From Eledone cirrhosa (Eukaryota), in NCBI GenBank assembly GCA_964016885.1, contig OZ024740.1:423026001-423090000 (forward strand): 64,000 nt of DNA, read 5' to 3'. The notes under the pieces are model-generated. The model had not been told where the DNA came from, searched no databases, and worked only from the letters and a program-made list of their open reading frames with translations. Both the position numbers and the translations under genes were made by a program. Positions 1 through 41,277 of the stretch are shown piece by piece. Numbering within the stretch: the first letter of the stretch is position 1; each line of letters opens with the position of its first letter.

Positions 1-3000
1 AGGTGTTGATAGAGAAGATCAGAAGTGTGGAGAGAGTGGTTGACAGGTCTGGATGTAAGGAGAGCTGGACCTTGGGAGAAAGAGGAGGTGTTGATGTGGA
101 AGGTAAGATGTGTGGAGAGAGTGGTTGACAGGTCTGGATGTAAGGAGAGCTAGACCTTAGGACAGAGAGGAGGTGTTGATGGAGAAGGTAAGAAGTGTGG
201 AGAGAGTGGTTGACAGGTCTGGATGTAAGGAGAGCTAGACCTTAGGACAGAGAAGAGGTGTTGATGGAGAAGGTCAGAAGTGTGGAGAGAGTGGTTGACA
301 GGTCTGGATGTAAGGAGAGCTAGACCTTAGGACTGAGAGGAGATGTTGATAGAGAAGGTCAGAAGTGTGGAGAGAGTGGTTGACAGGTCTGGATGTAAGG
401 AGGGGTGACCTTAGGACTGAGAGGAGATGTTGATAGAGAAGGTCAGAAGTGTGGAGAGAGTGGCTGACAGGTCTGGATGTGAGGAGAGCTGGACCTTAGG
501 ACAGAGAAGAGGTGTTGATGGAGAAGGTCAGAAGTGTGGAGAGAGTGGTTGACAGGTCTGGATGTAAGGAGAGCTAGACCTTAGGACAGAGAGGAGATGT
601 TGATAGAGAAGGTCAGAAGTGTGGAGAGAGTGGTTGACAAGTCTGGATGTAAGGAGAGGTGGACCTTAAGACAGAGAAGAGGTGTTGATAGAGAAGGTCA
701 GAAGTGTGGAGAGAGTGGCTGACAGGTCTGGATGTAAGGAGAGCTGGACCTTAGGACAGAGAAGAGGTGTTGATGGAGAAGGTCAGAAGTGTGGAGAGAG
801 TGGCTGACAGGTCTGGATGTGAGGAGAGCTGGACCTTAGGACAGAGAAGAGGTGTTGATAGAGAAGGTCAGAAGTGTGGAGAGAGTGGTTGACAGGTCTG
901 GATGTAAGGAGAGGTGGACCTTAGGACAGAGAAGAGGTGTTGATGGAGAAGGTCAGAAGTGTGGAGAGAGTGGCTGACAGGTCTGGATGTGAGGAGAGCT
1001 GGACCTTAGGACAGAGAAGAGGTGTTGATAGAGAAGGTCAGAAGTGTGGAGAGAGTGGTTGACAGGTCTGGATGTAAGGAGAGCTGGACCTTAGGACAGA
1101 GAGGAGGTGTTGTTTGAGAAGGTCAGAAGTGTGGAGAGAGTGGTTGACAGGTCTGGATGTAAGGAGAGCTAGACCTTAGGACAGAGAGGAGGTGTTGATA
1201 GACAAGGTCAGAAGTGTGGAGAGAGTGGTAGAGAGGTCTGGATGTAAGGAGAGCTAGACCTTAGGACATAGAGGAGATGTTGATAGAGAAGGTCAGAAGT
1301 GTGGAGAGAGTGGTTGACAGGTCTGGATGTAAGGAGAGGTGGACCTTAGGACATAGAGGAGGTGTTGATAGAGAAGGTCAGATGTGTGGAGAGAGTGGTT
1401 GACAGGTCTGGATGTAAGGAGAGCTAGACCTTAGGACAGAGAGGAGATGTTGATAGAGAAGGTCAGAAGTGTGGAGAGAGTGGTTGACAGGTCTGGATGT
1501 AAGGAGAGCTAGGCCTTAGGAAAGAGAGGAGGTGTTGATAGAGAAGATCAGAAGTGTGGAGAGAGTGGTTGACAGGTCTGGATGTAAGGAGAACTGAACC
1601 TTAGGAAAGAGAGGATGTGTTGATAGAGAAGATCAGAAGTGTGGAGAGAGTGGTTACAGGTCTGGATGTAAGGAGAGCTAGACCTTAGGAAAGAGAGGAG
1701 GTGTTGATAGAGAAGATCAGAAGTGTGGAGAGAGTGGTAGAGAGGTCTGGATGTAAGGAGAACTGGACCTTAGGAAAGAGAGGAGGTGTTGATAGAGAAG
1801 ATCAGAAGTGTGGAGAGAGTGGTTGACAGGTCTGGATGTAAGGAGAGCTAGACCTTAGGACAGAGAGGAGGTGTTGATGGAGAAGGTAAGAAGTGTGGAG
1901 AGAGTGGTTGACAGGTCTGGATGTAAGGAGAGCTAGACCTTAGGAAAGAGAGGAGGTGTTGATAGAGAAGGTCAGAAGTGTGGAAAGAGTGGTTGACAGG
2001 TCTGGATGTAAGGAGAGCTAGACCTTAGGACAGAAGGGAGGTGTTGATAGAGGTCAGAAGTGTGGAGAGAGTGGTTGACAGGTCTGGATGTAAGGAGAAC
2101 TGGATCTTAGGAAAGAGAGGTGTTGATAGAGAAGATCAGAAGTGTGGAGAGAGTGGTTGACAGGTCTGGATGTAAGGAGAGCTGGACCTTAGGACAGAGA
2201 GGAGGTGTTGATTGAGAAGGTCAGAAGTGTGGAGAGAGTGGTTGACAGGTCTGGATGTAAGGAGAGGTAGACCTTAGGAAAGAGAGGAGGTGTCGATAGA
2301 GAAGGTCAGACGTGTGGAGAGAGTGGTTGACAGGTCTGGATGTAAGGAGAGCTAGACCTTAGGACAGAGAGAAGGTGTTGATAGAGAAGGTCAGAAGTGT
2401 GGAGAGAGTGGTAGAGAGGTCTGGATGTAAGGAGAGCTGGACCTTAGGACATAGAGGAGGTGTTGATAGAGAAGGTCAGAAGTGTGGAGAGAGTGGTTGA
2501 CAGGTCTGGATGTAAGGAGAGCTAGACCTTAGGACAGAGAAGAGGTGTTGATGGAGAAGGTCAGAAGTGTGGAGAGAGTGGTTGACAGGTCTGGATGTAA
2601 GGAGAGCTAGACCTTAGGACTGAGAGGAGATGTTGATAGAGAAGGTCAGATGTGTGGAGAGAGTGGTTGACAGGTCTGGATGTAAGGAGAACTGGACCTT
2701 AGGACAGAGAGGAGATGTTGATAGAGAAGGTCAGAAGTGTGGAGAGAGTGGTTGACAGGTCTGGATGTAAGGAGAGCTAGACCTTAGGACAGAGAGGAGG
2801 TGTTGATAGAGAAGGTCAGAAGTGTGGAGAGAGTGGTTGACAGGTCTGGATGTAAGGAGAGCTAGACCTTAGGACAGAAGGGAGGTGTTGATAGAGGTCA
2901 GAAGTGTGGAGAGAGTGGTTGACAGGTCTGGATGTAAGGAGAACTGGACCTTAGGACAGAGAAGAGGTGTTGATGGAGAAGGTCAGAAGTGTGGAGAGAG

Positions 3001-6000
3001 TGGTTGACAGGTCTGGATGTAAGGAGAGCTGGACCTTAGGACTGAGAGGAGGTGTTGGTAGAGAAGGTCAGAAGTGTGGCGAGAGTGGCTGACAGGTCTG
3101 GATGTGAGGAGAGCTGGACCTTAGGACAGAGAAGAGGTGTTGATAGACAAGGTCAGAAGTGTGGAGAGAGTGGTTGACAGGTCTGGATGTAAGGAGAGCT
3201 AGACTTTGGACAGAGAGGAGGTGTTGATAGAGAAGATCAGAAGTGTGGAGAGAGTGGTTGACACGTCTTAATGTAAGGAGAGCTGGACCTTAGGACGGAG
3301 AGGAGGTGTTGATAGAGAAGGTCAGAAGTGTGGAAAGAGTGGTTGACAGGTCTGGATGTAAGGAGAGCTAGACCTTAGGACAGAAGGGAGGTGTTGATAG
3401 AGGTCAGAAGTGTGGAGAGAGTGGTTGACAGGTCTGGATGTAAGGAGAACTGGACCTTAGGAAAGAGAGGTGTTGATAGAGAAGATCAGAAGTGTGGAGA
3501 GAGTGGTTGACAGGTCTGGATGTAAGGAGAGCTGGACCTTGGTAGAAAGAGGAGGTGTTGATGTGGAAGGTAAGATGTGTGGAGAGAGTGGTTGACAGGT
3601 CTGGATGTAAGGAGAGCTAGACCTTAGGACAGAGAGGAGGTGTTGATGGAGAAGGTAAGAAGTGTGGAGAGAGTGGTTGACAGGTCTGGATGTAAGGAGA
3701 GCTAGACCTTAGGACAGAGAAGAGGTGTTGATGGAGAAGGTCAGAAGTGTGGAGAGAGTGGTTGACAGGTCTGGATGTAAGGAGAGCTAGACCTTAGGAC
3801 TGAGAGGAGATGTTGATAGAGAAGGTCAGAAGTGTGGAGAGAGTGGTTGACAGGTCTGGATGTAAGGAGAGCTAGACCTTAGGACTGAGAGGAGGTGTTG
3901 ATGGAGAAGGTCAGAAGTGTGGAGAGAGTGGTAGAGAGGTCTGGATGTAAGGAGAGCTGGACCTTAGGACATAGAGGAGGTGTTGATAGAGAAGGTCAGA
4001 AGTGTGGAGAGAGTGGTTGACAGGTCTGGATGTAAGGAGGGGTGGACCTTAGGACTGAGAGGAGATGTTGATAGAGAAGGTCAGAAGTGTGGAGAGAGTG
4101 GCTGACAGGTCTGGATGTGAGGAGCGCTGGACCTTAGGACAGAGAAGAGGTGTTGATGGAGAAGGTCAGAAGTGTGGAGAGAGTGGTTGACAGGTCTGGA
4201 TGTAAGGAGAGCTAGACCTTAGGACTGAGAGGAGGTGTTGATGGAGAAGGTAAGAAGTGTGGAGAGAGTGGTTGACAGGTCTGGATGTAAGGAGAGCTGG
4301 ACCTTAGGACAGAGAGGAGGTGTTGATTGAGAGGGTCAGAAGTGTGGAGAGAGTGGTTGACAGGTCTGGATGTAAGGAGAGCTAGACCTTAGGAAAGAGA
4401 GGAGGTGTCGATAGAGAAGGTCAGACGTGTGGAGAGAGTGGTATAGAGGTCTGGATGTAAGGAGAGCTAGACCTTAGGACAGAGAGGAGGTGTTGATAGA
4501 GAAGGTCAGAAGTGTGGAGAGAGTGGTTGACAGGTCTGGATGTAAGGAGAGCTAGACCTTAGGACAGAGAGAAGGTGTTGATAGAGAAGGTCAGAAGTGT
4601 GGAGAGAGTGGTAGAGAGGTCTGGATGTAAGGAGAGCTGGACCTTAGGACATAGAGGAGGTGTTGATAGAGAAGGTCAGAAGTGTGGAGAGAGTGGTTGA
4701 CAGGTCTGGATGTAAGGAGAGCTAGACCTTAGGACAGAGAAGAGGTGTTGATGGAGAAGGTCAGAAGTGTGGAGAGAGTGGTTGACAGGTCTGGATGTAA
4801 GGAGAGCTAGACCTTAGGACTGAGAGGAGATGTTGATAGAGAAGGTCAGATGTGTGGAGAGAGTGGTTGACAGGTCTGGATGTAAGGAGAACTGGACCTT
4901 AGGACAGAGAGGAGATGTTGATAGAGAAGGTCAGAAGTGTGGAGAGAGTGGTTGACAGGTCTGGATGTAAGGAGAGCTAGACCTTAGGACAGAGAGGAGG
5001 TGTTGATAGAGAAGGTCAGAAGTGTCGAGAGAGTGGTTGACAGGTCTGGATGTAAGGAGAGCTAGACCTTAGGACAGAAGGGAGGTGTTGATAGAGGTCA
5101 GAAGTGTGGAGAGAGTGGTTGACAGGTCTGGATGTAAGGAGAACTGGACCTTAGGACAGAGAAGAGGTGTTGATGGAGAAGGTCAGAAGTGTGGAGAGAG
5201 TGGTTGACAGGTCTGGATGTAAGGAGAGCTGGATCTTAGGACTGAGAGGAGGTGTTGATAGAGAAGGTCAGAAGTGTGGAGAGAGTGGCTGACAGGTCTG
5301 GATGTGAGGAGAGCTGGACCTTAGGACCGAGAAGAGGTGTTGATAGACAAGGTCAGAAGTGTGGAGAGAGTGGTTGACAGGTCTGGATGTAAGGAGAGCT
5401 AGACTTTGGACAGAGAGGAGGTGTTGATAGAGAAGATCAGAAGTGTGGAGAGAGTGGTTGACACGTCTTAATGTAAGGAGAGCTGGACCTTAGGACGGAG
5501 AGGAGGTGTTGATAGAGAAGGTCAGAAGTGTGGAAAGAGTGGTTGACAGGTCTGGATGTAAGGAGAGCTAGACCTTAGGACAGAAGGGAGGTGTTGATAG
5601 AGGTCAGAAGTGTGGAGAGAGTGGTTGACAGGTCTGGATGTAAGGAGAACTGGACCTTAGGAAAGAGAGGTGTTGATAGAGAAGATCAGAAGTGTGGAGA
5701 GAGTGGTTGACAGGTCTGGATGTAAGGAGAGCTGGACCTTGGGAGAAAGAGGAGGTGTTGATGTGGAAGGTAAGATGTGTGGAGAGAGTGGTTGACAGGT
5801 CTGGATGTAAGGAGAGCTAGACCTTAGGACAGAGAGGAGGTGTTGATGGAGAAGGTCAGATGTGTGGAGAGAGTGGTTGACAGGTCTGGATGTAAGGAGA
5901 ACTGGACCTTAGGACAGAGAGGAGATGTTGATAGAGAAGGTCAGAAGTGTGGAGAGAGTGGTTGACAGGTCTGGATGTAAGGAGAGCTAGACCTTAGGAC

Positions 6001-9000
6001 AGAGAGGAGGTGTTGATAGAGAAGGTCAGAAGTGTGGAGAGAGTGGTAGAGAGGTCTGGATGTAAGGAGAGCTAGACCTTAGGACATAGAGGAGGTGTTG
6101 ATAGAGAAGGTCAGAAGTGTGGAGAGAGTGGTTGACAGGTCTGGATGTAAGGAGAGCTAGACCTTAGGACAGAGAGGAGGTGTTGACAGAGAAGGTCAGA
6201 AGTGTGGAGAGAGTGGTTGACAGGTCTGGATGTAAGGAGAGGTGGACCTTAGGACTGAGAGGAGATGCTGATAGAGAAGGTCAGAAGTGTGGAGAGAGTG
6301 GCTGACAGGTCTGGATGTGAGGAGAGCTGGACCTTAGGACAGAGAAGAGGTGTTGATGGAGAAGGTCAGAAGTGTGGAGAGAGTGGTTGACAGGTCTGGA
6401 TGTAAGGAGAGCTGGACCTTAGGACTGAGAGGAGGTGTTGATAGAGAAGGTCAGAAGTGTGGAGAGAGTGGCTGACAGGTCTGGATGTGAGGAGAGCTGG
6501 ACCTTAGGACAGAGAAGAGGTGTTGATAGAGAAGGTCAGAAGTGTGGAGAGAGTGGTTGACAGGTCTGGATGTAAGGAGAGCTAGACCTTAGGACAGAGA
6601 GGAGGTGTTGATGGAGAAGGTAAGAAGTTTGGAGAGAATGGTTGACAGGTCTAGATGTAAGGAGAGGTGGACCTTAGGACAGAGAGGAGGTGTTGATAGA
6701 GAAGGTCGGATGTGTGGAGAGAGTGGTTGACAGGTCTGGATGTAAGTAGAGCTGGACCTTAGGACAGAGAGGAGGTGTTGTTTGAGAAGGTCAGAAGTGT
6801 GGAGAGAGTGGTTAACAGGTCTGGATGTAAGGAGAGCTAGACCTTAGGACAGAGAGGAGGTGTTGATAGACAAGGTCAGAAGTGTGGAGAGAGTGGTAGA
6901 GAGGTCTGGATGTAAGGAGAGCTTGACCTTAGGACAGAGAGCAGGTGTTGATAGAGAAGGTCAGAAGTGTGGAGAGAGTGGTAGAGAGGTCTGGATGTAA
7001 GGAGAGCTAGACCTTAGGACATAGAGGAGATGTTGATAGAGAAGGTCAGAAGTGTGGAGAGAGTGGTTGACAGGTCTGGATGTAAGGAGAGCTAGACCTT
7101 AGGAAAGAGAGGAGGTGTTGATAGAGAAGATCAGAAGTGTGGAGAGAGTGGTTGACAGGTCTGGATGTAAGGAGAGGTGGACCTTAGGACATAGAGGAGA
7201 TGTTGATAGAGAAGGTCAGAAGTGTGGAGAGAGTGGTTGACAGGTCTGGATGTAAGGAGAGCTAGACCTTAGGAAAGAGAGGAGGTGTTGATAGAGAAGA
7301 TCAGAAGTGTGGAGAGAGTGGTTGACAGGTCTGGATGTAAGGAGAACTGGACCTTAGGAAAGAGAGGAGGTGTTGATAGAGAAGATCAGAAGTGTGGAGA
7401 GAGTGGTTACAGGTCTGGATGTAAGGAGAGCTAGACCTTAGGAAAGAGAGGAGGTGTTGATAGAGAAGATCAGAAGTGTGGAGAGAGTGGTAGAGAGGTC
7501 TGGATGTAAGGAGAACTGGACCTTAGGAAAGAGAGGAGGTGTTGATAGAGAAGATCAGAAGTGTGGAGAGAGTGGTTGACAGGTCTGGATGTAAGGAGAG
7601 CTAGACCTTAGGACAGAGAGGAGGTGTTGTTGGAGAAGGTAAGAAGTGTGGAGAGAGTGGTTGACAGGTCTGGATGTAAGGAGAGCTAGACCTTAGGAAA
7701 GAGAGGAGGTGTTGATAGAGAAGGTCAGAAGTGTGGCGAGAGTGGTTGACAGGTCTGGATGTAAGGAGAGCTAGACCTTAGGACAGAGAGGAGGTGTTGA
7801 TAGAGAAGGTCAGAAGTGTGGAGAGAGTGGTAGAGAGGTCTGGATGTAAGGAGAGCTGGACCTTAGGACATAGAGGAGGTGTTGATAGAGAAGGTCAGAA
7901 GTGTGGAAAGAGTGGTTGACAGGTCTGGATGTAAGGAGAGCTAGACCTTAGGACAGAAGGGAGGTGTTGATAGAGGTCAGAAGTGTGGAGAGAGTGGTTG
8001 ACAGGTCTGGATGTAAGGAGAACTGGACCTTAGGAGAGAGAGGAGGTGTTGATGTGGAAGGTAAGATGTGTGGAGAGAGTGGTTGACAGGTCTGGATGTA
8101 AGGAGAGCTGGACCTTCGGACAGAGAGGAGCTGTTGATGGAGAAGGTCAGAAGTGTGGAGAGAATGGTTGACAGGTCTGGATGTAAGGAGAGCTAGACCT
8201 TAGGACAGAGAGGAGGTGTTGATTTAGAAGGTCAGAAGTGTGGAGAGAGTGGTTGACAGGTCTGGATGTAAGGAGAGCTAGACCTTAGGAAAGAGAGGAG
8301 GTGTCGATAGAGAAGGTCAGACGTGTGGAGAGAGTGGTTGACAGGTCTGGATGTAAGGAGAGCTAGACCTTAGGACAGAGAGGAGGTGTTGATAGAGAAG
8401 GTCAGAAGTGTGGAGAGAGTGGTAGAGAGGTCTGGATGTAAGGAGAGCTGGACCTTAGGACATAGAGGAGGTGTTGATAGAGAAGGTCAGAAGTGTGGAG
8501 AGAGTGGTTGACAGGTCTGGATGTAAGGAGAGCTAGACCTTAGGACAGAGAAGAGGTGTTGATGGAGAAGGTCAGAAGTGTGGAGAGAGTGGTTGACAGG
8601 TCTGGATGTAAGGAGAGCTAGACCTTAGGACTGAGAGGAGATGTTGATAGAGAAGGTCAGATGTGTGGAGAGAGTGGTTGACAGGTCTGGATGTAAGGAG
8701 AACTGGACCTTAGGACAGAGAGGAGATGTTGATAGAGAAGGTCAGAAGTGTGGAGAGAGTGGTTGACAGGTCTGGATGTAAGAAGAGCTAGACCTTAGGA
8801 CAGAGAGGGGGTGTTGATAGAGAAGGTCAGAAGTGTGGAGAGAGTGGTTGACAGGTCTGGATGTAAGGAGAGCTAGACCTTAGGACAGAGAGGAGGTGTT
8901 GATAGAGAAGGTCAGAAGTGTGGAGAGAGTGGTTGACAGGTCTGGATGTAAGGAGAGGTGGACCTTAGGACTGAGAGGAGATGTTGATAGAGAAGGTCAG

Positions 9001-12000
9001 AAGTGTGGAGAGAGTGGCTGACAGGTCTGGATGTGAGGAGAGCTGGACCTTAGGACAGAGAAGAGGTGTTGATGGAGAAGGTCAGAAGTGTGGAGAGAGT
9101 GGTTGACAGGTCTGGATGTAAGGAGAGCTGAACCTTAGGACTGAGAGGAGGTGTTGATAGAGAAGGTCAGAAGTGTGGAGAGAGTGGCTGACAGGTCTGG
9201 ATGTGAGGAGAGCTGGACCTTAGGACAGAGAAGAGGTGTTGATAGAGAAGGTCAGAAGTGTGGAGAGAGTAGTTGACAGGTCTGGATGTAAGGAGAGCTA
9301 GACCTTAGGACAGAGAGGAGGTGTTGATGGAGAAGGTAAGAAGTTTGGAGAGAATGGTTGACAGGTCTGGATGTAAGGAGAGGTGGACCTTAGGACAGAG
9401 AGGAGGTGTTGTTAGAGAAGGTCAGAAGTGTGGAGAGAGTGGTAGAGAGGTCTGGATGTAAGGAGAGCTTGACCTTAGGACAGAGAGCAGGTGTTGATAG
9501 AGAAGGTCAGAAGTGTGGAGAGAGTGGTAGAGAGGTCTGGATGTAAGGAGAGCTAGACCTTAGGACATAGAGGAGATGTTGATAGAGAAGGTCAGAAGTG
9601 TGGAGAGAGTGGTTGACAGGTCTGGATGTAAGGAGAGCTAGACCTTAGGAAAGAGAGGAGGTGTTGATAGAGAAGATCAGAAGTGTGGAGAGAGTGGTTG
9701 ACAGGTCTGGATGTAAGGAGAACTGGACCTTAGGAAAGAGAGGAGGTGTTGATAGAGAAGATCAGAAGTGTGGAGAGAGTGGTTACAGGTCTGGATGTAA
9801 GGAGAGCTAGACCTTAGGAAAGAGAGGAGGTGTTGATAGAGAAGATCAGAAGTGTGGAGAGAGTGGTAGAGAGGTCTGGATGTAAGGAGAACTGGACCTT
9901 AGGAAAGAGAGGAGGTGTTGATAGAGAAGATCAGAAGTGTGGAGAGAGTGGTTGACAGGTCTGGATGTAAGGAGAGCTAGACCTTAGGACAGAGAGGAGG
10001 TGTTGTTGGAGAAGGTAAGAAGTGTGGAGAGAGTGGTTGACAGGTCTGGATGTAAGGAGAGCTAGACCATAGGAAAGAGAGGAGGTGTTGATAGAGAAGG
10101 TCAGAAGTGTGGCGAGAGTGGTTGACAGGTCTTAATTTAAGGAGAGCTGGACCATAGGACGGAGAAGAGGTGTTGATAGAGAAGGTCAGAAGTGTGGAAA
10201 GAGTGGTTGACAGGTCTGGATGTAAGGAGAGCTAGACCTTAGGACAGAAGGGAGGTGTTGATAGAGGTCAGAAGTGTGGAGAGAGTGGTTGACAGGTCTG
10301 GATGTAAGGAGAACTGGACCTTAGGAGAGAGAGGAGGTGTTGATGTGGAAGGTAAGATGTGTGGAGAGAGTGGTTGACAGGTCTGGATGTAAGGAGAGCT
10401 GGACCTTCGGACAGAGAGGAGCTGTTGATGGCGAAGGTCAGAAGTGTGGAGAGAATGGTTGACAGGTCTGGATGTAAGGAGAGCTAGACCTTAGGACAGA
10501 GAGGAGGTGTTGATGGAGAAGGTAAGAAGTGTGGAGAGAGTGGTTGACAGGTCTGGATGTAAGGAGAGCTGGACCTTAGGACAGAGAGGAGGTGTTGATT
10601 TAGAAGGTCAGAAGTGTGGAGAGAGTGGTTGACAGGTCTGGATGTAAGGAGAGCTAGACCTTAGGAAAGAGAGGAGGTGTCGATAGAGAAGGTCAGACGT
10701 GTGGAGAGAGTGGTTGACAGGTCTGGATGTAAGGAGAGCTAGACCTTAGGACAGAGAGGAGGTGTTGATAGAGAAGGTCAGAAGTGTGGAGAGAGTGGTA
10801 GAGAGGTCTGGATGTAAGGAGAGCTGGACCTTAGGACATAGAGGAGGTGTTGATAGAGAAGGTCAGAAGTGTGGAGAGAGTGGTTGACAGGTCTGGATGT
10901 AAGGAGAGCTAGACCTTAGGACAGAGAAGAGGTGTTGATGGAGAAGGTCAGAAGTGTGGAGAGAGTGGTTGACAGGTCTGGATGTAAGGAGAGCTAGACC
11001 TTAGGACTGAGAGGAGATGTTGATAGAGAAGGTCAGATGTGTGGAGAGAGTGGTTGACAGGTCTGGATGTAAGGAGAACTGGACCTTAGGACAGAGAGGA
11101 GATGTTGATAGAGAAGGTCAGAAGTGTGGAGAGAGTGGTTGACAGGTCTGGATGTAAGAAGAGCTAGACCTTAGGACAGAGAGGGGGTGTTGATAGAGAA
11201 GGTCAGAAGTGTGGAGAGAGTGGTTGACAGGTCTGGATGTAAGGAGAGCTAGACCTTAGGACAGAGAGGAGGTGTTGATAGAGAAGGTCAGAAGTGTGGA
11301 GAGAGTGGTTGACAGGTCTGGATGTAAGGAGAGGTGGACCTTAGGACTGAGAGGAGATGTTGATAGAGAAGGTCAGAAGTGTGGAGAGAGTGGCTGACAG
11401 GTCTGGATGTGAGGAGAGCTGGACCTTAGGACAGAGAAGAGGTGTTGATGGAGAAGGTCAGAAGTGTGGAGAGAGTGGTTGACAGGTTTGGATGTAAGGA
11501 GAGCTGGACCTTAGGACTGAGAGGAGGTGTTGATAGAGAAGGTCAGAAGTGTGGAGTGAGTGGCTGACAGGTCTGGATGTGAGGAGAGCTGGACCTTAGG
11601 ACAGAGAAGAGGTGTTGATAGAGAAGGTCAGAAGTGTGGAGAGAGTGGTTGACAGGTCTGGATTTAAGGAGAGCTAGACCTTAGGACAGAGAGGAGGTGT
11701 TGATGGAGAAGGTAAGAAGTTTGGAGAGAATGGTTGACAGGTCTGGATGTAAGGAGAGGTGGACCTTAGGACAGAGAGGAGGTGTTGTTAGAGAAGGTCA
11801 GATGTGTGGAGAGAGTGGTAGAGAGGTCTGGATGTAAGGAGAGCTAGACCTTAGGACAGAGAGGAGGTGTTGATAGAGAAGGTCAGATGTGTGGAGAGAG
11901 TGGTATAGAGGTCTGGATGTAAGGAGAGCTAGACCTTAGGACAGAGAGGACATGTTGATAGAGAAGGTCAGATATGTGGAGAGAGTGGTTGACAGGTCTG

Positions 12001-24000: not shown

Positions 24001-27000
24001 GTTGATAGAGAAGATCAGAAGTGTGGAGAGAGTGGTAGAGAGGTCTGGATGTAAGGAGAACTGGACCTTAGGAAAGAGAGGAGGTGTTGATAGAGAAGAT
24101 CAGAAGTGTGGAGAGAGTGGTTGACAGGTCTGGATGTAAGGAGAGCTAGACCTTAGGACAGAGAGGAGGTGTTGATGGAGAAGGTAAGAAGTGTGGAGAG
24201 AGTGGTTGACAGGCCTGGATGTAAGGAGAGCTAGACCTTACGAAAGAGAGGAGGTGTTGATAGAGAAGGTCAGAAGTGTGGAGAGAGTGGTTGACAGGTC
24301 TGGATGTAAGGAGAGCTAGACCTTAGGACAGAAGGGAGGTGTTGATAGAGGTCAGAAGTGTGGAGAGAGTGGTTGACAGGTCTGGATGTAAGGAGAGCTG
24401 GATCTTAGGACAGAGAGGAGGTGTTGATAGAGAAGGTCAGAAGTGTGGAGAGAGTGGTTGACAGGTCTGGATGTAAGGAGAGCTAGACCTTAGGAAAGAG
24501 AGGAGGTGTTGATAGAGAAGGTCAGAAGTGTGGAGAGAGTGGTTGACAGGTTTGGATGTAAGGAGAGCTAGACCTTAGGACAGAGAGGAGGTGTTGATAG
24601 AGAAGGTCAGAAGTGTGTAGAGAGTGGTTGACAGGTTTGGATGTAAGGAGAGGTGGACCTTAGGAAAGAGAGGAGGTGTTGATAGAGAATGTCAGAAGTG
24701 TGGAGAGAGTGGTTGACAGGTCTGGATGTAAGGAGAGCTAGACCTTAGGAAAGAGAGGAGGTGTTGATAGAGAAGGTCAGAAGTGTGGAGAGAGTGGTTG
24801 ACAGGTCTGGATGTAAGGAGAGCTAGACCTTAGGACAGAGAGGAGGTGTTGATAGAGAAGGTCAGAAGTGTGGAGAGAGTGGTTGACAGGTCTGGATGTA
24901 AGGAGAGCTAGACCTTAGGAAAGAGAGGAGGTGTTGATAGAGAAGGTCAGAAGTGTGGAGAGAGTGGTTGACAGGTTTGGATGTAAGGAGAGGTGGACCT
25001 TAGGACAGAGAGGAGGTGTTGATAGAGAAGGTCAGAAGTGTGGAGAGAGTGGTAGAGAGGTCTGGATGTAAGGAGAGCTAGACCTTAGGAATGAAAGGTG
25101 TTGATAGAGAAGGTCAGACGTGTGGAGAGAGTGGTTGACAGGTCTGGATGTAAGGAGAGCTAGACCTTAGGACAGAGAGCAGGTGTTGATAGAGAATGTC
25201 AGAAGTGTGGAGAGAGTGGTTGACAGGTCTGGATGTAAGGAGAGCTAGACCTTAGGACAGAGAGGAGGTGTTGATAGAGAAGGTCAGAAGTGTGGAGAGA
25301 GTGATAGAGAGGTCTGGATGTAAGGAGAGGTGGACCTTAGGACAGAGAGGAGTTGTTGATAGAGAAGGTCAGAAGTTTGGAGAGAGTGGTATAGAGGTCT
25401 GGATGTAAGGAGAGCTAGACCTTAGGAATGAGAGGAGGTGTTGATAGAGAAGGTCAGACGTGTGGAGAGAGTGGTTGACAGGTCTGGATGTAAGGAGAGC
25501 TGGACCTTAGGACAGAGAGGAGGTGTTGATAGAGAAGGTCAGAAGTGTGGAGAGAGTGGTAGAGAGGTCTGGATGTAAGGAGAGCTGGACCTTAGGACAG
25601 AGAGGAGTTGTTGATAGAGAAGGTCAGAAGTTTGGAGAGAGTGGTATAGAGGTCTGGATGTAAGGAGAGCTAGACCTTAGGAATGAGAGGAGGTGTTGAT
25701 AGAGAAGGTCAGACGTGTGGAGAGAGTGGTTGACAGGTCTGGATGTAAGGAGAGCTGGACCTTAGGACAGAGAGGAGGTGTTGATAGAGAAGGTCAGAAG
25801 TGTGGAGAGAGTGGTTGACAGGTCTGGATGTAAGGAGAGCTGGACCTTAGGACAGAGAGGAGGTGTTGATAGAGAAGGTCAGAAGTGTGGAGAGAGTGGT
25901 TGACAGGTCTGGATGTAAGGAGAGCTGGACCTTAGGACAGAGAGGAGGTGTTGATAGAAAAGGTCAGAAGTGTGGAGAGAGTGGTTGACAGGTCTGGATG
26001 TAAGGAGAGCTAGACCTTAGGACAGAGAGGAGGTGTTGATAGAGAAGGTCAGAAGTGTGGAGAGAGTGGTTGACAGGTCTGGATGCAATGAGAGCTAGAC
26101 CTTAGGAAAGAGAGGAGGTGTTGATAGAGAAGGTCAGAAGTGTGGAGAGAGTGGTTGACAGGTCTGGATGTAAGGAGAGCTAGACCTTAGGACTGAGAGG
26201 AGATGTTGATAGAGAAGGTCACAAGTGTGGAGAGAGTGGTAGAGAGGTCTGGATGTAAGGAGAGCTAGACCTTAGGACAGAGAGGAGGTGTTGATAGAGA
26301 AGGTCAGATATGTGGAGAGAGTGGTTGACAGGTCTGGATGTAAGGAGAGCTAGACCTTAGGACAGAGAGGAGGTGTTGATAGAGAAGGTCAGAAGTGTGG
26401 AAAGAGTGGTTGACAGGTCTGGATGTAAGGAGAGCTAGAGCTTAGGACAGAAGGGAGGTGTTGATAGAGAAGGTCAGAAGTGTGGAGAGAGTGGTTGACA
26501 GGTCTGGATGTAAGGAGAGCTAGACCTTAGGACTGAGAGGAGATGTTGATAGAGAAGGTCAGAAGTGTGGAGAGAGTGGTTGACAGGTCTGGATGTAAGG
26601 AGAGCTAGACCTTAGGACAGAGAGGAGGTGTTGATGGAGAAGGTCAGAAGTGTGGAAAGAGTGGTTGATAGGTCTGGATGTAAGGAGAGCTAGACCTTAG
26701 GACAGAAGGGAGGTGTTGATAGAGGTCAGAAAGTGTGGAGAGAGTGGTTGACAGATCTGGATGTAAGGAGAACTGGACCTTAGGACAGAGAGGAGGTGTT
26801 GATAGAGAAGATCAGAAGTGTGGAGAGAGTGGTTGACAGGTCTGGATGTAAGGAGAGCTGGACCTTAGGAGAGAGAGGAGGTGTTGATGTGGAAGGTAAG
26901 ATGTGTGGAGAGAGTGGTTGACAGGTCTGGATGTAAGGAGAGCTGGAGCTTAGGACAGAGAGGAGCTGTTGATGGAGAAGGTCAGAAGTGTGGAGAGAGT

Positions 27001-30000
27001 GGTTGACAGGTCTGGATGTAAGGAGAGCTAGACCTTAGGACAGAGAGGAGGTGTTGATGGAGAAGGTAAGAAGTGTGGAGAGAGTGGTTGACAGGTCTGG
27101 ATGTAAGGAGAGCTGGACCTTAGGACAGAGAGGAGGTGTTGATTGAGAAGGTCAGAAGTGTGGAGAGAGTGGTTGACAGGTCTGGATGTAAGGAGAGCTA
27201 GACCTTAGGACAGAGAAGAGATGTTGATAGAGAAGGTCAGATGTGTGGAGAGAGTGGTTGACAGGTCTGGATGTAAGGAGAACTGGACCTTAGGACAGAG
27301 AGGAGATGTTGATAGAGAAGGTCAGAAGTGTGGAGAGAGTGGTTGACAGGTCTGGATGTAAGAAGAGCTAGACCTTAGGACAGAGAGGGGGTGTTGATAG
27401 AGAAGGTCAGAAGTGTGGAGAGAGTGGTTGACAGGTCTGGATGTAAGGAGAGCTAGACCTTAGGACAGAGAGGAGGTGTTGATAGAGAAGGTCAGAAGTG
27501 TGGAGAGAGTGGTTGACAGGTCTGGATGTAAGGAGAGGTGGACCTTAGGACTGAGAGGAGATGTTGATAGAGAAGGTCAGAAGTGTGGAGAGAGTGGCTG
27601 ACAGGTCTGGATGTGAGGAGAGCTGGACCTTAGGACAGAGAAGAGGTGTTGATGGAGAAGGTCAGAAGTGTGGAGAGAGTGGTTGACAGGTCTGGATGTA
27701 AGGAGAGCTGGACCTTAGGACTGAGAGGAGGTGTTGATAGAGAAGGTCAGAAGTGTGGAGAGAGTGGCTGACAGGTCTGGATGTGAGGAGAGCTGGACCT
27801 TAGGACAGAGAAGAGGTGTTGATAGAGAAGGTCAGAAGTGTGGAGAGAGTGGTTGACAGGTCTGGATGTAAGGAGAGCTAGACCTTAGGACAGAGAGGAG
27901 GTGTTGATGGAGAAGGTAAGAAGTTTGGAGAGAATGGTTGACAGGTCTGGATGTAAGGAGAGGTGGACCTTAGGACAGAGAGGAGGTGTTGATAGAGAAG
28001 GTCAGATGTGTGGAGAGAGTGGTTGACAGGTCTGGATGTAAGGAGAGCTGGACCTTAGGACAGAGAGGAGGTGTTGATTGAGAAGGTCAGAAGTGTGGAG
28101 AGAGTGGTTGACAGGTCTGGATGTAAGGAGAGCTAGACCTTAGGACAGAGAGGAGGTGTTGATAGACAAGGTCAGAAGTGTGGAGAGAGTGGTAGAGAGG
28201 TCTGGATGTAAGGAGAGCTTGACCTTAGGACAGAGAGGAGGTGTTGATAGAGAAGGTCAGAAGTGTGGAGAGAGTGGTAGAGAGGTCTGGATGTAAGGAG
28301 AGCTAGACCTTAGGACATAGAGGAGGTGTTGATAGAGAAGGTCAGATGTGTGGAGAGAGTGGTTGACAGGTCTGGATGTAAGGAGAGCTAGACCTTAGGA
28401 CAGAGAGGAGATGTTGATAGAGAAGGTCAGAAGTGTGGAGAGAGTGGTTGACAGGTCTGGATGTAAGGAGAGCTAGACCTTAGGAAAGAGAGGAGGTGTT
28501 GATAGAGAAGATCAGAAGTGTGGAGAGAGTGGTTGACAGGTCTGGATGTAAGGAGAACTGGACCTTAGGAAAGAGAGGAGGTGTTGATAGAGTCAGAAGT
28601 GTGGAGAGAGTGGTTGACAGGTCTGGATGTAAGGAGAGCTAGACCTTAGGAAAGAGAGGAGGTGTTGATAGAGAAGATCAGAAGTGTGGAGAGAGTGGTA
28701 GAGAGGTCTGGATGTAAGGAGAACTGGACCTTAGGAAAGAGAGGAGGTGTTGATAGAGAAGATCAGAAGTGTGGAGAGAGTGGTTGACAGGTCTGGATGT
28801 AAGGAGAGCTAGACCTTAGGACAGAGAGGAGGTGTTGATGGAGAAGGTAAGAAGTGTGGAGAGAGTGGTTGACAGGCCTGGATGTAAGGAGAGCTAGACC
28901 TTACGAAAGAGAGGAGGTGTTGATAGAGAAGGTCAGAAGTGTGGAGAGAGTGGTTGACAGGTCTGGATGTAAGGAGAGCTAGACCTTAGGACAGAAGGGA
29001 GGTGTTGATAGAGGTCAGAAGTGTGGAGAGAGTGGTTGACAGGTCTGGATGTAAGGAGAGCTGGATCTTAGGACAGAGAGGAGGTGTTGATAGAGAAGGT
29101 CAGAAGTGTGGAGAGAGTGGTTGACAGGTCTGGATGTAAGGAGAGCTAGACCTTAGGAAAGAGAGGAGGTGTTGATAGAGAAGGTCAGAAGTGTGGAGAG
29201 AGTGGTTGACAGGTTTGGATGTAAGGAGAGCTAGACCTTAGGACAGAGAGGAGGTGTTGATAGAGAAGGTCAGAAGTGTGTAGAGAGTGGTTGACAGGTT
29301 TGGATGTAAGGAGAGGTGGACCTTAGGAAAGAGAGGAGGTGTTGATAGAGAATGTCAGAAGTGTGGAGAGAGTGGTTGACAGGTCTGGATGTAAGGAGAG
29401 CTAGACCTTAGGAAAGAGAGGAGGTGTTGATAGAGAAGGTCAGAAGTGTGGAGAGAGTGGTTGACAGGTCTGGATGTAAGGAGAGCTAGACCTTAGGACA
29501 GAGAGGAGGTGTTGATAGAGAAGGTCAGAAGTGTGGAGAGAGTGGTTGACAGGTCTGGATGTAAGGAGAGCTAGACCTTAGGAAAGAGAGGAGGTGTTGA
29601 TAGAGAAGGTCAGAAGTGTGGAGAGAGTGGTTGACAGGTTTGGATGTAAGGAGAGGTGGACCTTAGGACAGAGAGGAGGTGTTGATAGAGAAGGTCAGAA
29701 GTGTGGAGAGAGTGGTAGAGAGGTCTGGATGTAAGGAGAGCTAGACCTTAGGAATGAAAGGTGTTGATAGAGAAGGTCAGACGTGTGGAGAGAGTGGTTG
29801 ACAGGTCTGGATGTAAGGAGAGCTAGACCTTAGGACAGAGAGCAGGTGTTGATAGAGAATGTCAGAAGTGTGGAGAGAGTGGTTGACAGGTCTGGATGTA
29901 AGGAGAGCTAGACCTTAGGACAGAGAGGAGGTGTTGATAGAGAAGGTCAGAAGTGTGGAGAGAGTGATAGAGAGGTCTGGATGTAAGGAGAGGTGGACCT

Positions 30001-32956
30001 TAGGACAGAGAGGAGTTGTTGATAGAGAAGGTCAGAAGTTTGGAGAGAGTGGTATAGAGGTCTGGATGTAAGGAGAGCTAGACCTTAGGAATGAGAGGAG
30101 GTGTTGATAGAGAAGGTCAGACGTGTGGAGAGAGTGGTTGACAGGTCTGGATGTAAGGAGAGCTGGACCTTAGGACAGAGAGGAGGTGTTGATAGAGAAG
30201 GTCAGAAGTGTGGAGAGAGTGGTAGAGAGGTCTGGATGTAAGGAGAGCTGGACCTTAGGACAGAGAGGAGTTGTTGATAGAGAAGGTCAGAAGTTTGGAG
30301 AGAGTGGTATAGAGGTCTGGATGTAAGGAGAGCTAGACCTTAGGAATGAGAGGAGGTGTTGATAGAGAAGGTCAGACGTGTGGAGAGAGTGGTTGACAGG
30401 TCTGGATGTAAGGAGAGCTGGACCTTAGGACAGAGAGGAGGTGTTGATAGAGAAGGTCAGAAGTGTGGAGAGAGTGGTTGACAGGTCTGGATGTAAGGAG
30501 AGCTGGACCTTAGGACAGAGAGGAGGTGTTGATAGAGAAGGTCAGAAGTGTGGAGAGAGTGGTTGACAGGTCTGGATGTAAGGAGAGCTGGACCTTAGGA
30601 CAGAGAGGAGGTGTTGATAGAAAAGGTCAGAAGTGTGGAGAGAGTGGTTGACAGGTCTGGATGTAAGGAGAGCTAGACCTTAGGACAGAGAGGAGGTTTT
30701 GATAGAGAAGGTCAGAAGTGTGGAGAGAGTGGTTGACAGGTCTGGATGCAATGAGAGCTAGACCTTAGGAAAGAGAGGAGGTGTTGATAGAGAAGGTCAG
30801 AAGTGTGGAGAGAGTGGTTGACAGGTCTGGATGTAAGGAGAGCTAGACCTTAGGACTGAGAGGAGATGTTGATAGAGAAGGTCACAAGTGTGGAGAGAGT
30901 GGTAGAGAGGTCTGGATGTAAGGAGAGCTAGACCTTAGGACAGAGAGGAGGTGTTGATAGAGAAGGTCAGATATGTGGAGAGAGTGGTTGACAGGTCTGG
31001 ATGTAAGGAGAGCTAGACCTTAGGACAGAGAGGAGGTGTTGATAGAGAAGGTCAGAAGTGTGGAAAGAGTGGTTGACAGGTCTGGATGTAAGGAGAGCTA
31101 GAGCTTAGGACAGAAGGGAGGTGTTGATAGAGAAGGTCAGAAGTGTGGAGAGAGTGGTTGACAGGTCTGGATGTAAGGAGAGCTAGACCTTAGGACTGAG
31201 AGGAGATGTTGATAGAGAAGGTCAGAAGTGTGGAGAGAGTGGTTGACAGGTCTGGATGTAAGGAGAGCTAGACCTTAGGACAGAGAGGAGGTGTTGATGG
31301 AGAAGGTAAGAAGTGTGGAGAGAGTGGTTGACAGGTCTGGATGTAAGGAGAGGTGGACCTTAGGACAGAGAGGAGGTGTTGATTGAGAAGGTAAGAAGTG
31401 TGGAGAGAGTGGGTGACAGGTCTGGATGTAAGGAGAGGTGGACCTTAGGACAGAGAGGAGGTGTTGATTGAGAAGGTCAGAAGTGTGGAGAGAGTGGTTG
31501 ACAGGTCTGGATGTAAGGAGAGCTAGACCTTAGGAAAGAGAGGAGGTGTTGATAGAGAAGGTCAGAAGTGTGGAGAGAGTGGTTGACAGGTCTGGATGTA
31601 AGGAGAGCTAGACCTTAGGATAGAGAGGAGGTGTTGATAGAGAAGGTCAGAAGTGTCGAGAGAGTGGTAGAGAGGTCTGGATGTAAGGAGAGCTAGACCT
31701 TAGGAAAGAGAGGAGGTGTTGATAGTGAAGGTCAGAAGTGTGGAGAGAGTGGTTGACAGGTCTGGATGTAAGGAGAGGTGGACCTTAGGACAGAGAGGAG
31801 ATGTTGATAGAGAATGTCAGAAGTGTGGAGAGAGTGGTTGACAGGTCTGGATGTAAGGAGAGCTAGACCTTAGGACAGAGAGGAGGTGTTGATAGAGAAG
31901 GTCAGAAGTGTGGAGAGAGTGGTTGACAGGTCTGGATGTAAGGAGAGCTAGACCTTAGGACAGAGAGGAGGTGTTGATTGAGAAGGTCAGAAGTGTGGAG
32001 AGAGTGGTTGACAGGTCTGGATGTAAGGAGAGGTGGACCTTAGGACAGAGAGGAGGTGTTGATTGAGAAGGTCAGAAGTGTGGAGAGAGTGGTAGGGAGG
32101 TCTGGATGTAAGGAGAGCTAGACCTTAGGACAGAGAGGAGGTGTTGATTGAGTAGGTCAGAAGTGTGGAGAGAGTGGTTGACAGGTCTGGATGTAAGGAG
32201 AGCTGGACCTTAGGACAGAGAGGTGTTGATAGAGAAGGTCAGAAGTGTGGAGAGAGTGGTTGACAGGTCTGGATGTAAGGAGAGCTAGACCTTAGGACTG
32301 AGAGGAGATGTTGATTGAGAAGGTCAGAAGTGTGGAGAGAGTGGTTGACAGGTCTGGATGTAAGGAGAGCTAGACCTTAGGACTGAGAGGAGATGTTGAT
32401 TGAGAAGGTCAGAAGTGTGGAGAGAGTGGTTCACAGGTCTGGATGTAAGGAGAGCTAGACCTTAGGACTGAGAGGAGATGTTGATTGAGAAGGTAAGAAG
32501 TGTGGAGAGAGTGGTTGACAGGTCTGGATGTAAGGAGAGCTAGACCTTAGGACAGAGAGGAGGTGTTGATGGAGAACGTAAGAAGTGTGGAGAGAGTGGT
32601 AGAGAGGTCTGGATGTAAGGAGAGCTGGACCTTAGGACAGAAAAGAGGTGTTGATGGAGAAGGTCAGAAGTGTGGAGAGAGTGGTTGACAGGTCTGGATG
32701 TAAGGAGAGCTAGACCTTAGGACAGAAAAGAGGTGTTGATGGAGAAGGTCAGAAGTGTGGAGAGAGTGGTTGACAGGTCTGGATGTAAGGAGAGCTGGAC
32801 CTTAGGACAGAAAAGAGGTGTTGATGGAGAAGGTCAGAAGTGTGGAGTGAGTGGTAGACAGGTCTGGATGTAAGGAGAGCTAGACCTTAGGACAGAAAAG
32901 AGGTGTTGATGGAGAAGGTCAGAAGTGTGGAGAGAGTGGTTGACAGGTCTGGATGT
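1..32956 (+). repeat. 85-bp tandem satellite array (about 388 copies; continues beyond window start)
   Basis: Consensus AGGTGTTGATAGAGAAGGTCAGAAGTGTGGAGAGAGTGGTTGACAGGTCTGGATGTAAGGAGAGCTAGACCTTAGGACAGAGAGG recurs at 1, 86, 171 and onward with few substitutions and 1-4 bp indels. It ends at ...GGTCTGGATGT (32956). Confidence 0.99.
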
Positions 32957-34528
32957 TAGAAGTGCTGGACGATTATCAACGAGATGACAGGGAGGAAAAG
33001 AGGGAGTTCGATTCTGATCCAGGGTACAGTGCCCGAAGATAGGAAAAAAATTTGACAGGATAATTTTAAGACCCTACCTTCCACAGCCCAGAATACCAGG
33101 GTGATCAGACAACTATTTTTGGAACTAGATATTGAGACAGGGCCCTTCACCACAGAGGAGCTTCAGAGATCCAAGAAGAAGATCAAGGAGGGCAAGGCGT
33201 ATGGAGTTGATGGAGTGGCATCAGAGGTGATGAGGTGTGATTTTGATGATATCATCCTAGAGTTCTGTAACCAGGCACTGGAGAAAGGAATTGCCCCAGA
33301 TCATATGTTGATCAGTATCATCGTCCCAGTGCCAAAAAAGGGAGATCTCTCTAACACCAACAACTACAGGGGCATCTCACTGACGTCACTTGTGGCTAAG
33401 ACCCTCAACAGGATGACTTTTAACAGGACGCAGACCAAGATGGAGAAGAAGCTCAGTGACAACCAGAATGGCTTCAGAGAGGGAAGATCAACCACCAGCC
33501 ACATCCTGATGCTAGGGAGAATTTTAGAGGGAGCTAGAGCAAAGAGCCTCCCTGCTGTCATGGTTTTCATTGACTTCAGGAAGGCCTATTATTCTGTGGG
33601 CCAAGACTGCCTGATGAAGATCTTATAGGCTTATTGAATCCCCAAAAAGACAGTGGACCTGATATCACTTCTCTGCACCAACACCAGAACCCAAGACATT
33701 ACACCTGGATGATGGAGTTCTTTGAGATACTAACTGGAGGGCTCCAGGGAGATACATTGGCTCCCTACCTTTTCACCATCACAGTGAACTATTGTATGTA
33801 TCTTGCACTGGAGAAACACCAGAACTTGGGCATTACTGTAGCACCGGCTCAGAACAGTAGAGTTAAGGCTTAAAAGATCTCAGATACTGAATTTGATGAT
33901 GACATAAATTTGGTGACAAACACAGTGAAGGAGGCAGAGGAGTTGATGCAAGAGGTGGAGACTGTGTTGATGAGTGTGGTACGGAGAATGGATGAGAGAA
34001 AGACAAAGTATCTGATGGAGAACATCAAAGAGCCAGAGAAGTTTATGAATGTGGGCGGAGAGCCGCTAGAGTTGGTTGAGGACATCCGGTATCTGGGAGC
34101 AAAGATTGGGAACACATAGGATAATGTGGTGGAGAGGAAGAGCAAAGCCTGGGCGATGTGCCACAATTTGAGATCAGTGTAGAAGTCGGACCTTTGTAAA
34201 AACATGCAGATCGTCCCTTTGTTGCTACAGTGGAATCTACTGTATGGGTCATAGACTTGGACACTGACCAAGAGTCTCTCAGATAGTGGATGGGTGCTAC
34301 ACGAGGATGTTGAGGATGGCTCTGAACATTAATCAGTAAGCACTGAGGATGAAGAACTCAGAGCTGTATGGGAACCTCTCCAAAATCAGCTCAAAAGTGA
34401 CACAGGTGGTGACTGAGGTTAGCTGGACAGAGTTGACACTGCACTCAATGGTCCCGTGGGAGCACCTACACAGACACACTGGAAGAGGGGGACACAGGAT
34501 GACATATGTTGATGCCCTAAGGGCAGAT
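32900..34528 (+). mobile_element. Degenerate non-LTR retrotransposon ORF2 (RTE/RTEX-like), linker + RT + C-terminus
   Basis: Motifs GPFTTEEL..KEGKAYGVDG, VPVPKKGDLSNTNNYRGISL, NQNGFREGRSTT, FIDFRKAY, GLQGDTLAPYLF, EFDDDI (decayed FADD), YLG and C-terminal GRGGHRMTYVDALRAD. Broken by stops and frameshifts (ORFs 33101-33628, 33634-33873, 33910-34119, 34349-). Confidence 0.9.
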
Positions 34529-34663
34529 AAAAACAGACCACCGAAAAAAAAAGAACGAGCTCCCCCACACCCCAGGGTTTCAAAAGATCGGAGAAGGGAA
34601 GGAAAACTTTGCTGTTCTTTACAGAAGATAAACACATTTGTTGTTTCAAAGTAAAATATATTA

Positions 34664-34860
34664 TAGTGGGATATAGAGAGAGGGAGAGAATTTGATGGTT
34701 CAGTGAGAGAGGGGGGAACTGTGAGAGAGAGAGAGTGAGGTATTTAATAGGACATAGAGAGGGGTAATTGTCAGAGAGGTAGAGAGAAATGTATGTAGTG
34801 GAATATAGAGAGGGACAGAGAGTTTGGTAGTTTAGTTAGAGAGGGGGAATTGTGAGAGGA
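34664..34860 (+). repeat. Diverged ~80-bp GA-rich minisatellite, left part
   Basis: Units containing GTGGGATATAGAGAG..TTTAGTGAGAGAGGGGGAATTGTGAGAG. Same motif as 40575-41160. Confidence 0.75.
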
Positions 34861-38515: not shown

Positions 38516-38556
38516 GTTGGTGCTGAAGAGTTAAAAGGAAGAGGAAAGGAAATTAC

Positions 38557-41160: not shown

Positions 41161-41277
41161 AAATAAATATAGGAGGGAAGAAAATGTTATAATCTTGGGT
41201 CTCAGTAAAGCGGATGTGTATGTGTGTGTGTTTATATGGGTGTGTGTGTGTGTTTATATATATGTGTGTGTGTTTAT

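What the first reader, a model, noticed from the sequence alone, without database searches (positions are those of the whole stretch)
1..33200. 33-kb satellite apparently amplified from an 85-bp piece of LINE ORF2, still fused in frame to its source element
Seen: the monomer translates as EEVL(I/M)EKVRSVERVVDRSGCKES(W/*)T. The last copy runs with no junction into ...KEVLMEKVRSVERVVDRSGC*KCWTIINEMTGRKRGSSILIQGTVPEDRKKI*QDNFKTL...VIRQLFLELDIETGPFTTEEL, the same frame as the RT ORF at 33101 (codon starts 32942 and 33101 are congruent mod 3). The LINE sequence just past the array (TGTTAGAAGTGCTGGAC) still aligns to the monomer (TGTAAGGAGAGCTGGAC). Knowledge: this peptide resembles the EN-RT linker of RTE-like LINEs, and TE-derived satellites are known but more often come from UTRs, LTRs or TIRs. 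Inference: a satellite birth site, where an internal coding segment expanded about 390-fold in place.
Basis: partly seen in the sequence, partly recalled or inferred. Interest (0 to 1): 0.85.

Follow-up and report, generated by a model that had tools for sequence, protein, structure and literature searches.

The report
Satellite born inside one dead LINE
A 208,000-letter block of about 2,450 copies of an 85-letter repeat lies in the middle of one broken jumping gene, whose left and right parts meet the block exactly on either side, so the block likely grew there from a single internal duplication: an unusually complete example of a known way in which satellite DNA is born.

Summary
Confirmed, and larger than reported. 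The 85-bp array runs 207,768 bp (about 2,450 units, no gap, no inserted element), 175 kb of it upstream of the window. All 29 other LINE copies examined carry the unit once, in the endonuclease-RT linker of a 3.3-kb single-ORF, RTE-like element. At the far end, 389 bp of the same LINE run straight into unit 1, so the array sits inside one truncated, decayed copy. All 906 genome-wide junction matches and all 1,319 matches to the unit's own variants lie in this array; the ancestral form has 955 dispersed matches. Both flanks and the units are about equally decayed (7-9%). Growth likely came from adjacent block duplications, up to 82 units long. Corrections: the endonuclease half is absent, there is no separate ORF2, and 'in frame' is only register, since stops are fixed and 85 is not a multiple of 3. 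TE-derived satellites, including ORF-derived ones and ones that keep parental ends, are published; earlier notes of this scan report similar cases elsewhere in this genome. Its value is a complete birth site with known ancestor. No function is shown.

The parts
1..32970 (+). Right-hand 33 kb (388 units start in the window) of a 207,768-bp head-to-tail array of an 85-bp unit. The array begins 174,798 bp before the window (C1:422,851,203). The 389-bp 5' piece of the host LINE lies just before that (C1:422,850,814-422,851,202), outside the window.
32886..32970 (+). Last unit; equals nt 1,526-1,610 of a full-length family copy (endonuclease-RT linker). Its last 14 nt carry three changes that are rare in the array (unit positions 72, 75, 78); the one at 72 is shared with unit 1.
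32971..34527 (+). 3' piece of the host LINE copy (rest of linker, RT, C-terminal region), decayed, about 13-15% mismatch to other copies; the last 100 nt or so of the element and its tail are missing.
33056..33628 (+). Longest stop-free remnant of the host ORF in this frame (190 aa) with the start of the RT domain.
   Evidence: RVT_1, E 1.7e-11

Best explanation
The array is a single-locus satellite whose 85-bp unit is a piece of the endonuclease-RT linker of an RTE-like LINE, lying exactly between the 5' and 3' parts of one decayed copy, and it likely arose there by one tandem duplication after that copy had died and then likely grew by repeated homology-directed duplication of blocks of whole units. 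Shown: unit identity, both junctions, single locus in the assembly, matching decay of the three parts, adjacent near-identical blocks. Inferred: (1) an old, truncated copy decayed neutrally; (2) an 85-bp segment was duplicated head to tail through an almost blunt join (repair or replication slip; no flanking direct repeat in the source); (3) out-of-register repair or unequal exchange added blocks of about 1-7 kb, and conversion mixed variants, pushing the two LINE halves 208 kb apart; (4) the size reflects an expansion-tolerant chromosome region rather than a property of the LINE. It is predicted to be non-coding heterochromatic DNA without a selected function.
For: Unit present once in 29 of 29 other copies at 8-14% mismatch and at the same place in 10 further copies. 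5' flank collinear with family copies for 389 bp up to the first base of unit 1; 3' flank resumes at the next base after the last unit. Junction pattern: 906 matches genome-wide, 906 in this array. Unit-specific pattern: 1,319 and 1,319. Ancestral pattern: 955 dispersed matches on both strands. Letters seen in at most 1 of 39 other copies: 5' flank 6.9%, 3' flank 9.1%, mean unit 8.4%, commonest unit 5.9%. Both flanks carry older-subfamily alleles (16 of 17 and 31 of 38 diagnostic sites). A G>T at unit position 3 makes a stop in the ORF frame, is in 2,285 of 2,315 full-length units and in unit 1, two bases from the 5' junction, and in none of the 38 other copies aligned there; of 9 genome-wide matches to that junction 14-mer only this one is in this LINE. 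271 runs of 6 or more near-identical units cover 75% of units; the longest are adjacent: 82 units with 1 mismatch, 56 with none. No fixed higher-order repeat; mean pair distance is 6.6-6.8% at every separation.
Against: The last 14 nt of the last unit have three changes where the array mostly keeps the ancestral letter (4, 36 and 7 of 2,315), which fits an early duplication with a long-isolated right edge. Fixed differences in the unit can also arise by homogenisation after birth, so they date the units' common ancestor, not the first duplication; the estimate rests on 3-6 sites. The rare letter shared by units 1 and 2,442 needs either a reversion or an inside-out expansion, and is not explained. 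No target-site duplication can be tested, as both ends of the host are lost. The 'older subfamily' set was partly chosen by likeness to the 5' flank. Exact patterns would miss a diverged or unassembled array. The block pattern does not tell unequal exchange from break-induced or rolling-circle synthesis, and identical adjacent blocks could be assembly errors.
Confidence: 0.75

Rival explanations
1. Same birthplace, earlier start: the first duplication was made during or soon after insertion (for example a template slip of the reverse transcriptase), stayed a short repeat, and the differences now fixed were spread later by homogenisation.
For: Three nearly private changes in the last 14 nt of the last unit. 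Published work suggests tandem repetition of TE parts can start at retrotransposition (PMC3389668, passages).
Against: No other copy has this junction, also with ancestral letters allowed at three pattern positions. Unit 1 carries the fixed changes right up to the 5' junction, a stop codon two bases in among them, where later conversion would have little homology to work with.
Confidence: 0.12
2. The repeat was amplified off the chromosome or at another copy (excised circle, rolling-circle synthesis) and entered this LINE copy by homologous recombination with its 85-bp segment.
For: An almost blunt head-to-tail join is what circularisation would give; variants are evenly mixed along the array; a single crossover would leave collinear flanks too.
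Against: No donor: the unit's variants occur nowhere else in the assembly. Units and flanks are equally decayed. Nested adjacent block duplications point to stepwise growth in place. A circle cut from this same copy cannot be excluded but is still birth from this copy.
Confidence: 0.08
3. The origin is right but the size is inflated by assembly: perfect adjacent blocks are false duplications.
For: Adjacent blocks of 56 units with 0 and 82 units with 1 mismatch.
Against: 850 distinct unit sequences; most blocks differ by several bases; short-read contigs of run X1 lie across both unit junctions at very high depth, one junction contig alone at 1,026 against 5.3 for the unique flank (X1 may be the source sample, and none of the 8 listed pieces has 31 letters on both sides).
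Confidence: 0.04
4. A 5'-truncated LINE inserted into or beside an older, unrelated satellite through microhomology.
For: None found.
Against: The unit is an integral, in-frame part of every family copy examined, including three with an intact 1,031-aa ORF, and LINE sequence continues on the far side of the array.
Confidence: 0.01

Closest known systems
SINE-derived satellites (sSat) of squamate reptiles, PMC10702118 (abstract, Squam3 results section and Discussion read)
   Same: The whole unit is an internal piece of a retroposon; the terminal unit runs on into parental sequence, in minor variants at both ends; arrays reach about 1,000-1,200 units; long arrays are more homogeneous.
   Different: Here the parent is a LINE coding region; both flanks are kept to the base; there is one locus, not tens to thousands; about 2,450 units.
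ORF-related satellites listed by Zattera and Bruschi, PMC9659126 (passages and section 2 read): chicken HinfI from CR1, Phodopus PROsat and seal Pvc 20 from LINE-1 ORF2, cetacean common satellite from the L1 3' end
   Same: Satellite sequence drawn from a LINE, including its ORF.
   Different: As the review words them, these are similarities of (part of) a monomer to a LINE; I did not read the primary papers. Here the whole unit is LINE and the source copy still brackets the array.
Ogre-derived satellites of Lathyrus sativus, PMC7004042 (abstract only)
   Same: Arrays expand inside retrotransposon copies, and mainly in particular chromosome regions.
   Different: They start from short tandem arrays already carried by the LTR element; here the source is a single, non-repeated coding segment.
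TE-derived tandem repeats in the human genome, PMC3389668 (passages)
   Same: Local duplication inside TE copies; 94% lack the flanking direct repeat or incomplete end unit that the two standard models need, as does this one.
   Different: Most have two units; none of this scale appears in the passages seen.
CEN178 mutation spectrum in Arabidopsis, bioRxiv 10.1101/2025.06.02.657473 (abstract and spectrum section read)
   Same: Tandem insertions of whole units (1-31 units, mean 1.9 kb) and conversion between units; the block pattern here looks alike.
   Different: That is a functional megabase centromere, observed across generations; here blocks are inferred from one assembly and no centromere role is shown.

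Membership tests
Satellite DNA | Long uninterrupted head-to-tail array of a homogeneous unit | tested here: met
   207,768 bp, 2,442 segments, 3.9% mean difference from the commonest letters
Satellite DNA | Heterochromatic state (H3K9me3) or centromere chromatin (CENP-A) | not testable with these tools
   No chromatin data; no CENP-B-box-like motif (motif recalled), which says little outside mammals
TE-derived satellite | Unit homologous to part of a TE that occurs dispersed and unrepeated | tested here: met
   29 of 29 copies, once each; 955 dispersed ancestral matches
TE-derived satellite, born in place | Parental sequence continues collinearly on both sides | tested here: met
   389 bp 5' and 1,557 bp 3', no gap or overlap at either junction
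TE-derived satellite, born in place | Both halves are one insertion (shared target-site duplication) | tested here: inconclusive
   Both ends of the host are lost; same subfamily alleles and similar decay support one copy
TE-derived satellite, born in place | Orthologous site with a single unit in a sister species | not testable with these tools
   No related genomes are held; one contig of organism B matches the unique 5' flank but stops short of the LINE
Non-LTR retrotransposon with apurinic-type endonuclease (parent) | Endonuclease and RT domains in one ORF | tested here: met
   L027: Exo_endo_phos_2 aa 189-327, RVT_1 aa 616-851
RTE clade (parent; features recalled) | About 3.2-3.6 kb, single ORF, no ORF1, very short 3' end with a simple-repeat tail | tested here: met
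   3,301-3,309 bp in 4 copies, one 1,031-aa ORF in 3 of 4, (TAGA)n/(TA)n tail; length range for RTE-BovB from PMC10294476 passages
RTE clade (parent; features recalled) | RT phylogeny groups with named RTE elements | not tested
   The 120 listed homologues carry no clade names; the label stays 'RTE-like'
Coding fusion or domesticated repeat protein | Open frame through units into RT | tested here: not met
   Fixed stop at unit position 3, period not divisible by 3, longest + frame 73 aa
Higher-order-repeat satellite | Fixed multi-unit period, such as a 170-bp dimer | tested here: not met
   Even lags 6.71%, odd lags 6.69%; no dominant lag

The most novel reading that the evidence does not exclude
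This is a fully readable satellite birth site in a chromosome domain that turns chance duplications into large private arrays: the ancestor (hundreds of sibling LINE copies), a clock (the two flanks) and the growth steps (nested kilobase duplications, a rare variant stranded at both edges) are all preserved, and neighbouring arrays in the same 2 Mb are likewise single-locus. If the domain is a centromere or a comparable repair hotspot, it would show satellites being born repeatedly from whatever sequence lies there, and this young array may be entering centromeric chromatin.
Probability: 0.15. Interest if true: 0.8.

Novelty: new variant of a known kind. Interest (0 to 1): 0.5.

Why it matters
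How a unique sequence becomes a satellite is usually inferred from partial similarity long after the source is gone. Here the ancestral unit, both junctions and an internal clock survive, so every variant in 2,450 units can be polarised, mutation and conversion inside an array can be compared with the unrepeated flanks of the same element, and an ortholog in a sister species would show the state before or just after the first duplication. It also shows that no pre-existing repeat, UTR or terminal repeat is needed, and that an array can reach 200 kb without spreading to other loci. It reveals no new mechanism and no function.

Tried and rejected
Endonuclease half at the far end: not there; BLAST of 29 copies against 45 kb of upstream flank stops at the 389-bp piece. 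Missing 3' tail of the host: no hit in the rest of the window or upstream flank. Flanking direct repeat at spacing 85 in the source: none of 4 nt or more in the top lists for 4 copies. Special structure of the source segment: purine-rich (95th percentile of 85-nt windows in the element) but not extreme, ordinary folding energy, no strict G4. Dimer or other fixed higher-order repeat: none. Divergence gradient along the array: none (3.4-4.2% per 150 units). Public runs: no RNA holder listed, which says nothing on expression. Contigs of organisms B and D (X4, X6) cover the LINE form of the unit with loose ends into LINE sequence and give no cover beyond the unit junctions; contigs cannot prove absence, so this is not counted as evidence. 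RAD reads of another individual (X8) gave 8 reads, all LINE-type, uninformative. Source elements for four neighbouring arrays: no BLAST hit in the loci held. Paper search for the RTE definition found nothing. Searches of earlier notes by sequence and near this place found nothing. The organism was not determined here; 'octopus-like' comes from earlier AI notes and was used only as a search word.
Full report
Observation. TRF finds an 85-bp array at 1-32970 with 388.8 copies and 93% matches. The window is G000:C1:423,026,001-423,090,000, about 20 Mb from the end of a 443-Mb contig.

Is the unit part of the LINE? A search with the 443 bp after the array gave 1,838 candidates, 40 scored, 30 fetched, one of them the window itself. 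All 29 others have the unit once, directly upstream and in frame, at 8-14% mismatch to the commonest array unit; L011 keeps only the last 61 nt and L020 has a small local duplication. Ten more copies found with the 5' flank agree (L091 was left out as the same place as L019). Full-length copies are 3,301-3,309 bp in the 4 measured (a fifth, L096, was dropped when the anchor failed), have one 1,031-aa ORF in 3 of 4, end in a (TAGA)n/(TA)n tail and sit in TA microsatellites. The ORF has endonuclease (aa 189-327) and RT (aa 616-851) domains; the unit is nt 1,526-1,610, near aa 464-491, in the linker. This architecture is RTE-like (features recalled; length range from PMC10294476 passages). I did not test the clade by phylogeny, as the homologues are unnamed. 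There is no separate ORF2.

The far end. With 220 kb of upstream DNA the array starts at C1:422,851,203 and is 207,768 bp long, without N and without inserted elements: 2,442 segments, about 2,448 units. Upstream lie 389 bp that align to the family and run to the first base of unit 1. The 3' piece resumes at the base after the last unit and runs 1,557 bp. The host spans nt 1,132-3,209 of 3,309: it lacks the endonuclease domain and the last 100 nt, so no target-site duplication can be tested. The join between units is almost blunt, and the source has no direct repeat at spacing 85.

One locus. The junction pattern, with ancestral letters allowed at three positions, has 906 matches in the genome, all on +, and 906 lie in this array. 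A pattern of the unit's own variants has 1,319 and 1,319. The ancestral pattern has 955 matches spread over both strands. Of 9 matches to the 14-mer at the 5' junction, one is this locus and 8 are unrelated sequence. Exact patterns would miss a diverged or unassembled array.

One copy, one clock. Letters found in at most 1 of 39 other copies make up 6.9% of the 5' flank, 9.1% of the 3' flank, 8.4% of the mean unit and 5.9% of the commonest unit; at thresholds 0 and 2 the figures are 5.7/6.6/5.2/3.5% and 8.2/10.0/9.6/7.1%. Both flanks side with an older subfamily (16 of 17 and 31 of 38 sites; the set was partly chosen through the 5' flank). Private changes in the flanks are largely non-synonymous and include stops (pN 0.085 on both sides), as in neutral decay. 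Near-fixed changes in the unit include a stop two bases from the 5' junction, present in unit 1 and in 2,285 of 2,315 full-length units. So the common ancestor of today's units lived when the host was already roughly half to two thirds as decayed as now (inference from 3-6 sites). Against a late first duplication: the last 14 nt of the last unit have three changes that are rare in the array. One of them, T at position 72, is shared by the first and last unit and by only two others; from the counts such sharing has about 1% chance (my arithmetic). It fits an older small array pushed outward by an expanding interior, or a reversion; I cannot decide.

Growth. Units differ from the commonest letters by 3.9% with no gradient and from each other by 6.6-6.8% at every distance. 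There is no fixed higher-order repeat. Instead 271 runs of 6 or more near-identical units cover 75% of the array; 11 of the 45 longest are adjacent duplications of 14-82 units, among them 82 units with one mismatch and 56 with none. This resembles the whole-unit tandem insertions and conversions seen directly in Arabidopsis CEN178 arrays and tied there to homology-directed repair (bioRxiv 10.1101/2025.06.02.657473, abstract and spectrum section). The mechanism here is inferred by analogy. Short-read contigs of run X1 lie across the unit junctions at very high depth, against 5.3 for the unique flank; X1 may be the source sample and summed depth is no copy number. One contig of organism B matches 396 bp of the unique 5' flank with 32 differences and 8 gaps, so an orthologous site probably exists there.

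No coding meaning. The shared frame follows from collinearity. Each unit shifts the frame, the fixed stop closes it, and the longest stop-free frame on + is 73 aa.

Setting. Twelve of 20 one-kb samples across C1:422.0-424.0 Mb fall in other tandem arrays of nine unit types; I sampled no control region. Two were mapped: a 42-mer has 35 matches, all at one place; a 40-mer has 74 of 80 at one place and 6 dispersed. This suggests a region that tolerates or drives expansion, not a property of this LINE. Earlier AI notes on other pieces of this genome describe similar LINE-born arrays; I did not check their loci.

Comparison. TE-derived satellites are well documented, and a review lists ORF-related cases (HinfI, PROsat, Pvc 20) and finds no part of a TE clearly preferred (PMC9659126). 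Squamate SINE-derived satellites are the closest match: internal piece repeated up to about 1,200 times, parental sequence at one end or, in minor variants, both (PMC10702118). Lathyrus satellites expand from arrays already inside Ogre elements (PMC7004042, abstract). Human TE-derived repeats are common, mostly two units long, and mostly lack the marks of the standard models (PMC3389668, passages). Eight searches listed no single-locus array of this size from a LINE coding segment with both flanks kept; the library omits most subscription journals, and I read no supplements, where the two-ended sSat variants are shown.

Verdict. Observation confirmed; interpretation supported with corrections. 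Birth from this copy is very likely (about 0.9 across the first two explanations); a post-insertion first duplication followed by block duplication is the best single account (0.75). New variant of a known kind; interest 0.5, for a complete and testable birth site without a new mechanism or a shown function.

Noticed in passing
G000:C1:422.0-424.0 Mb (L063-L070, L097-L108): 12 of 20 one-kb samples lie in other tandem arrays, with units of 24, 40, 42, 46, 47, 61, 65, 69 and about 356 bp: a mosaic of unrelated arrays. No control region was sampled.
   Followed up: partly
L066 (C1:422,649,729-422,651,177) and L108 (C1:421,989,735-422,002,624): The 42-bp array is single-locus (35 of 35 matches); the 40-bp array has 74 of 80 matches at one place and 6 dispersed, which hints at a dispersed source element.
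   Followed up: partly
window 34860-40400, - strand: A second, different LINE with ORF1-like, endonuclease and RT frames (RVT_1 at 36578-37690) sits between two stretches of a purine-rich repeat of about 79 bp (34660-34860 and 40600-41030), as if inserted into it.
   Followed up: partly
unit 1 (C1:422,851,203) and window 32886-32970: First and last unit share a T at unit position 72 that occurs in only 4 of 2,315 full-length units.
   Followed up: partly
L092-L095: Young full-length copies of the family (3.3 kb, intact 1,031-aa ORF in three) lie inside (TA)n microsatellites on both sides, suggesting a target preference; the family may still be active.
   Followed up: partly
array, units about 1,400-1,650: A 7-bp deletion across a unit junction recurs six times and marks nested block duplications; 82-bp units (81 copies) form another marker lineage.
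   Followed up: partly
window 41254-61236: Further decayed mobile elements: RT-like frames at 41254-41898, 43358-44584, 50275-53071, transposase-like frames at 45591-46634, two Penelope-like frames at 53759-55522 and 60001-61236 (labels from recalled motifs), and a 2.2-kb (TA)n tract at 61471-63709.
   Followed up: no
L058:4317-4712 (unique 5' flank): A contig of organism B (run X4) matches this flank with about 8% differences: a handle on the orthologous site.
   Followed up: partly
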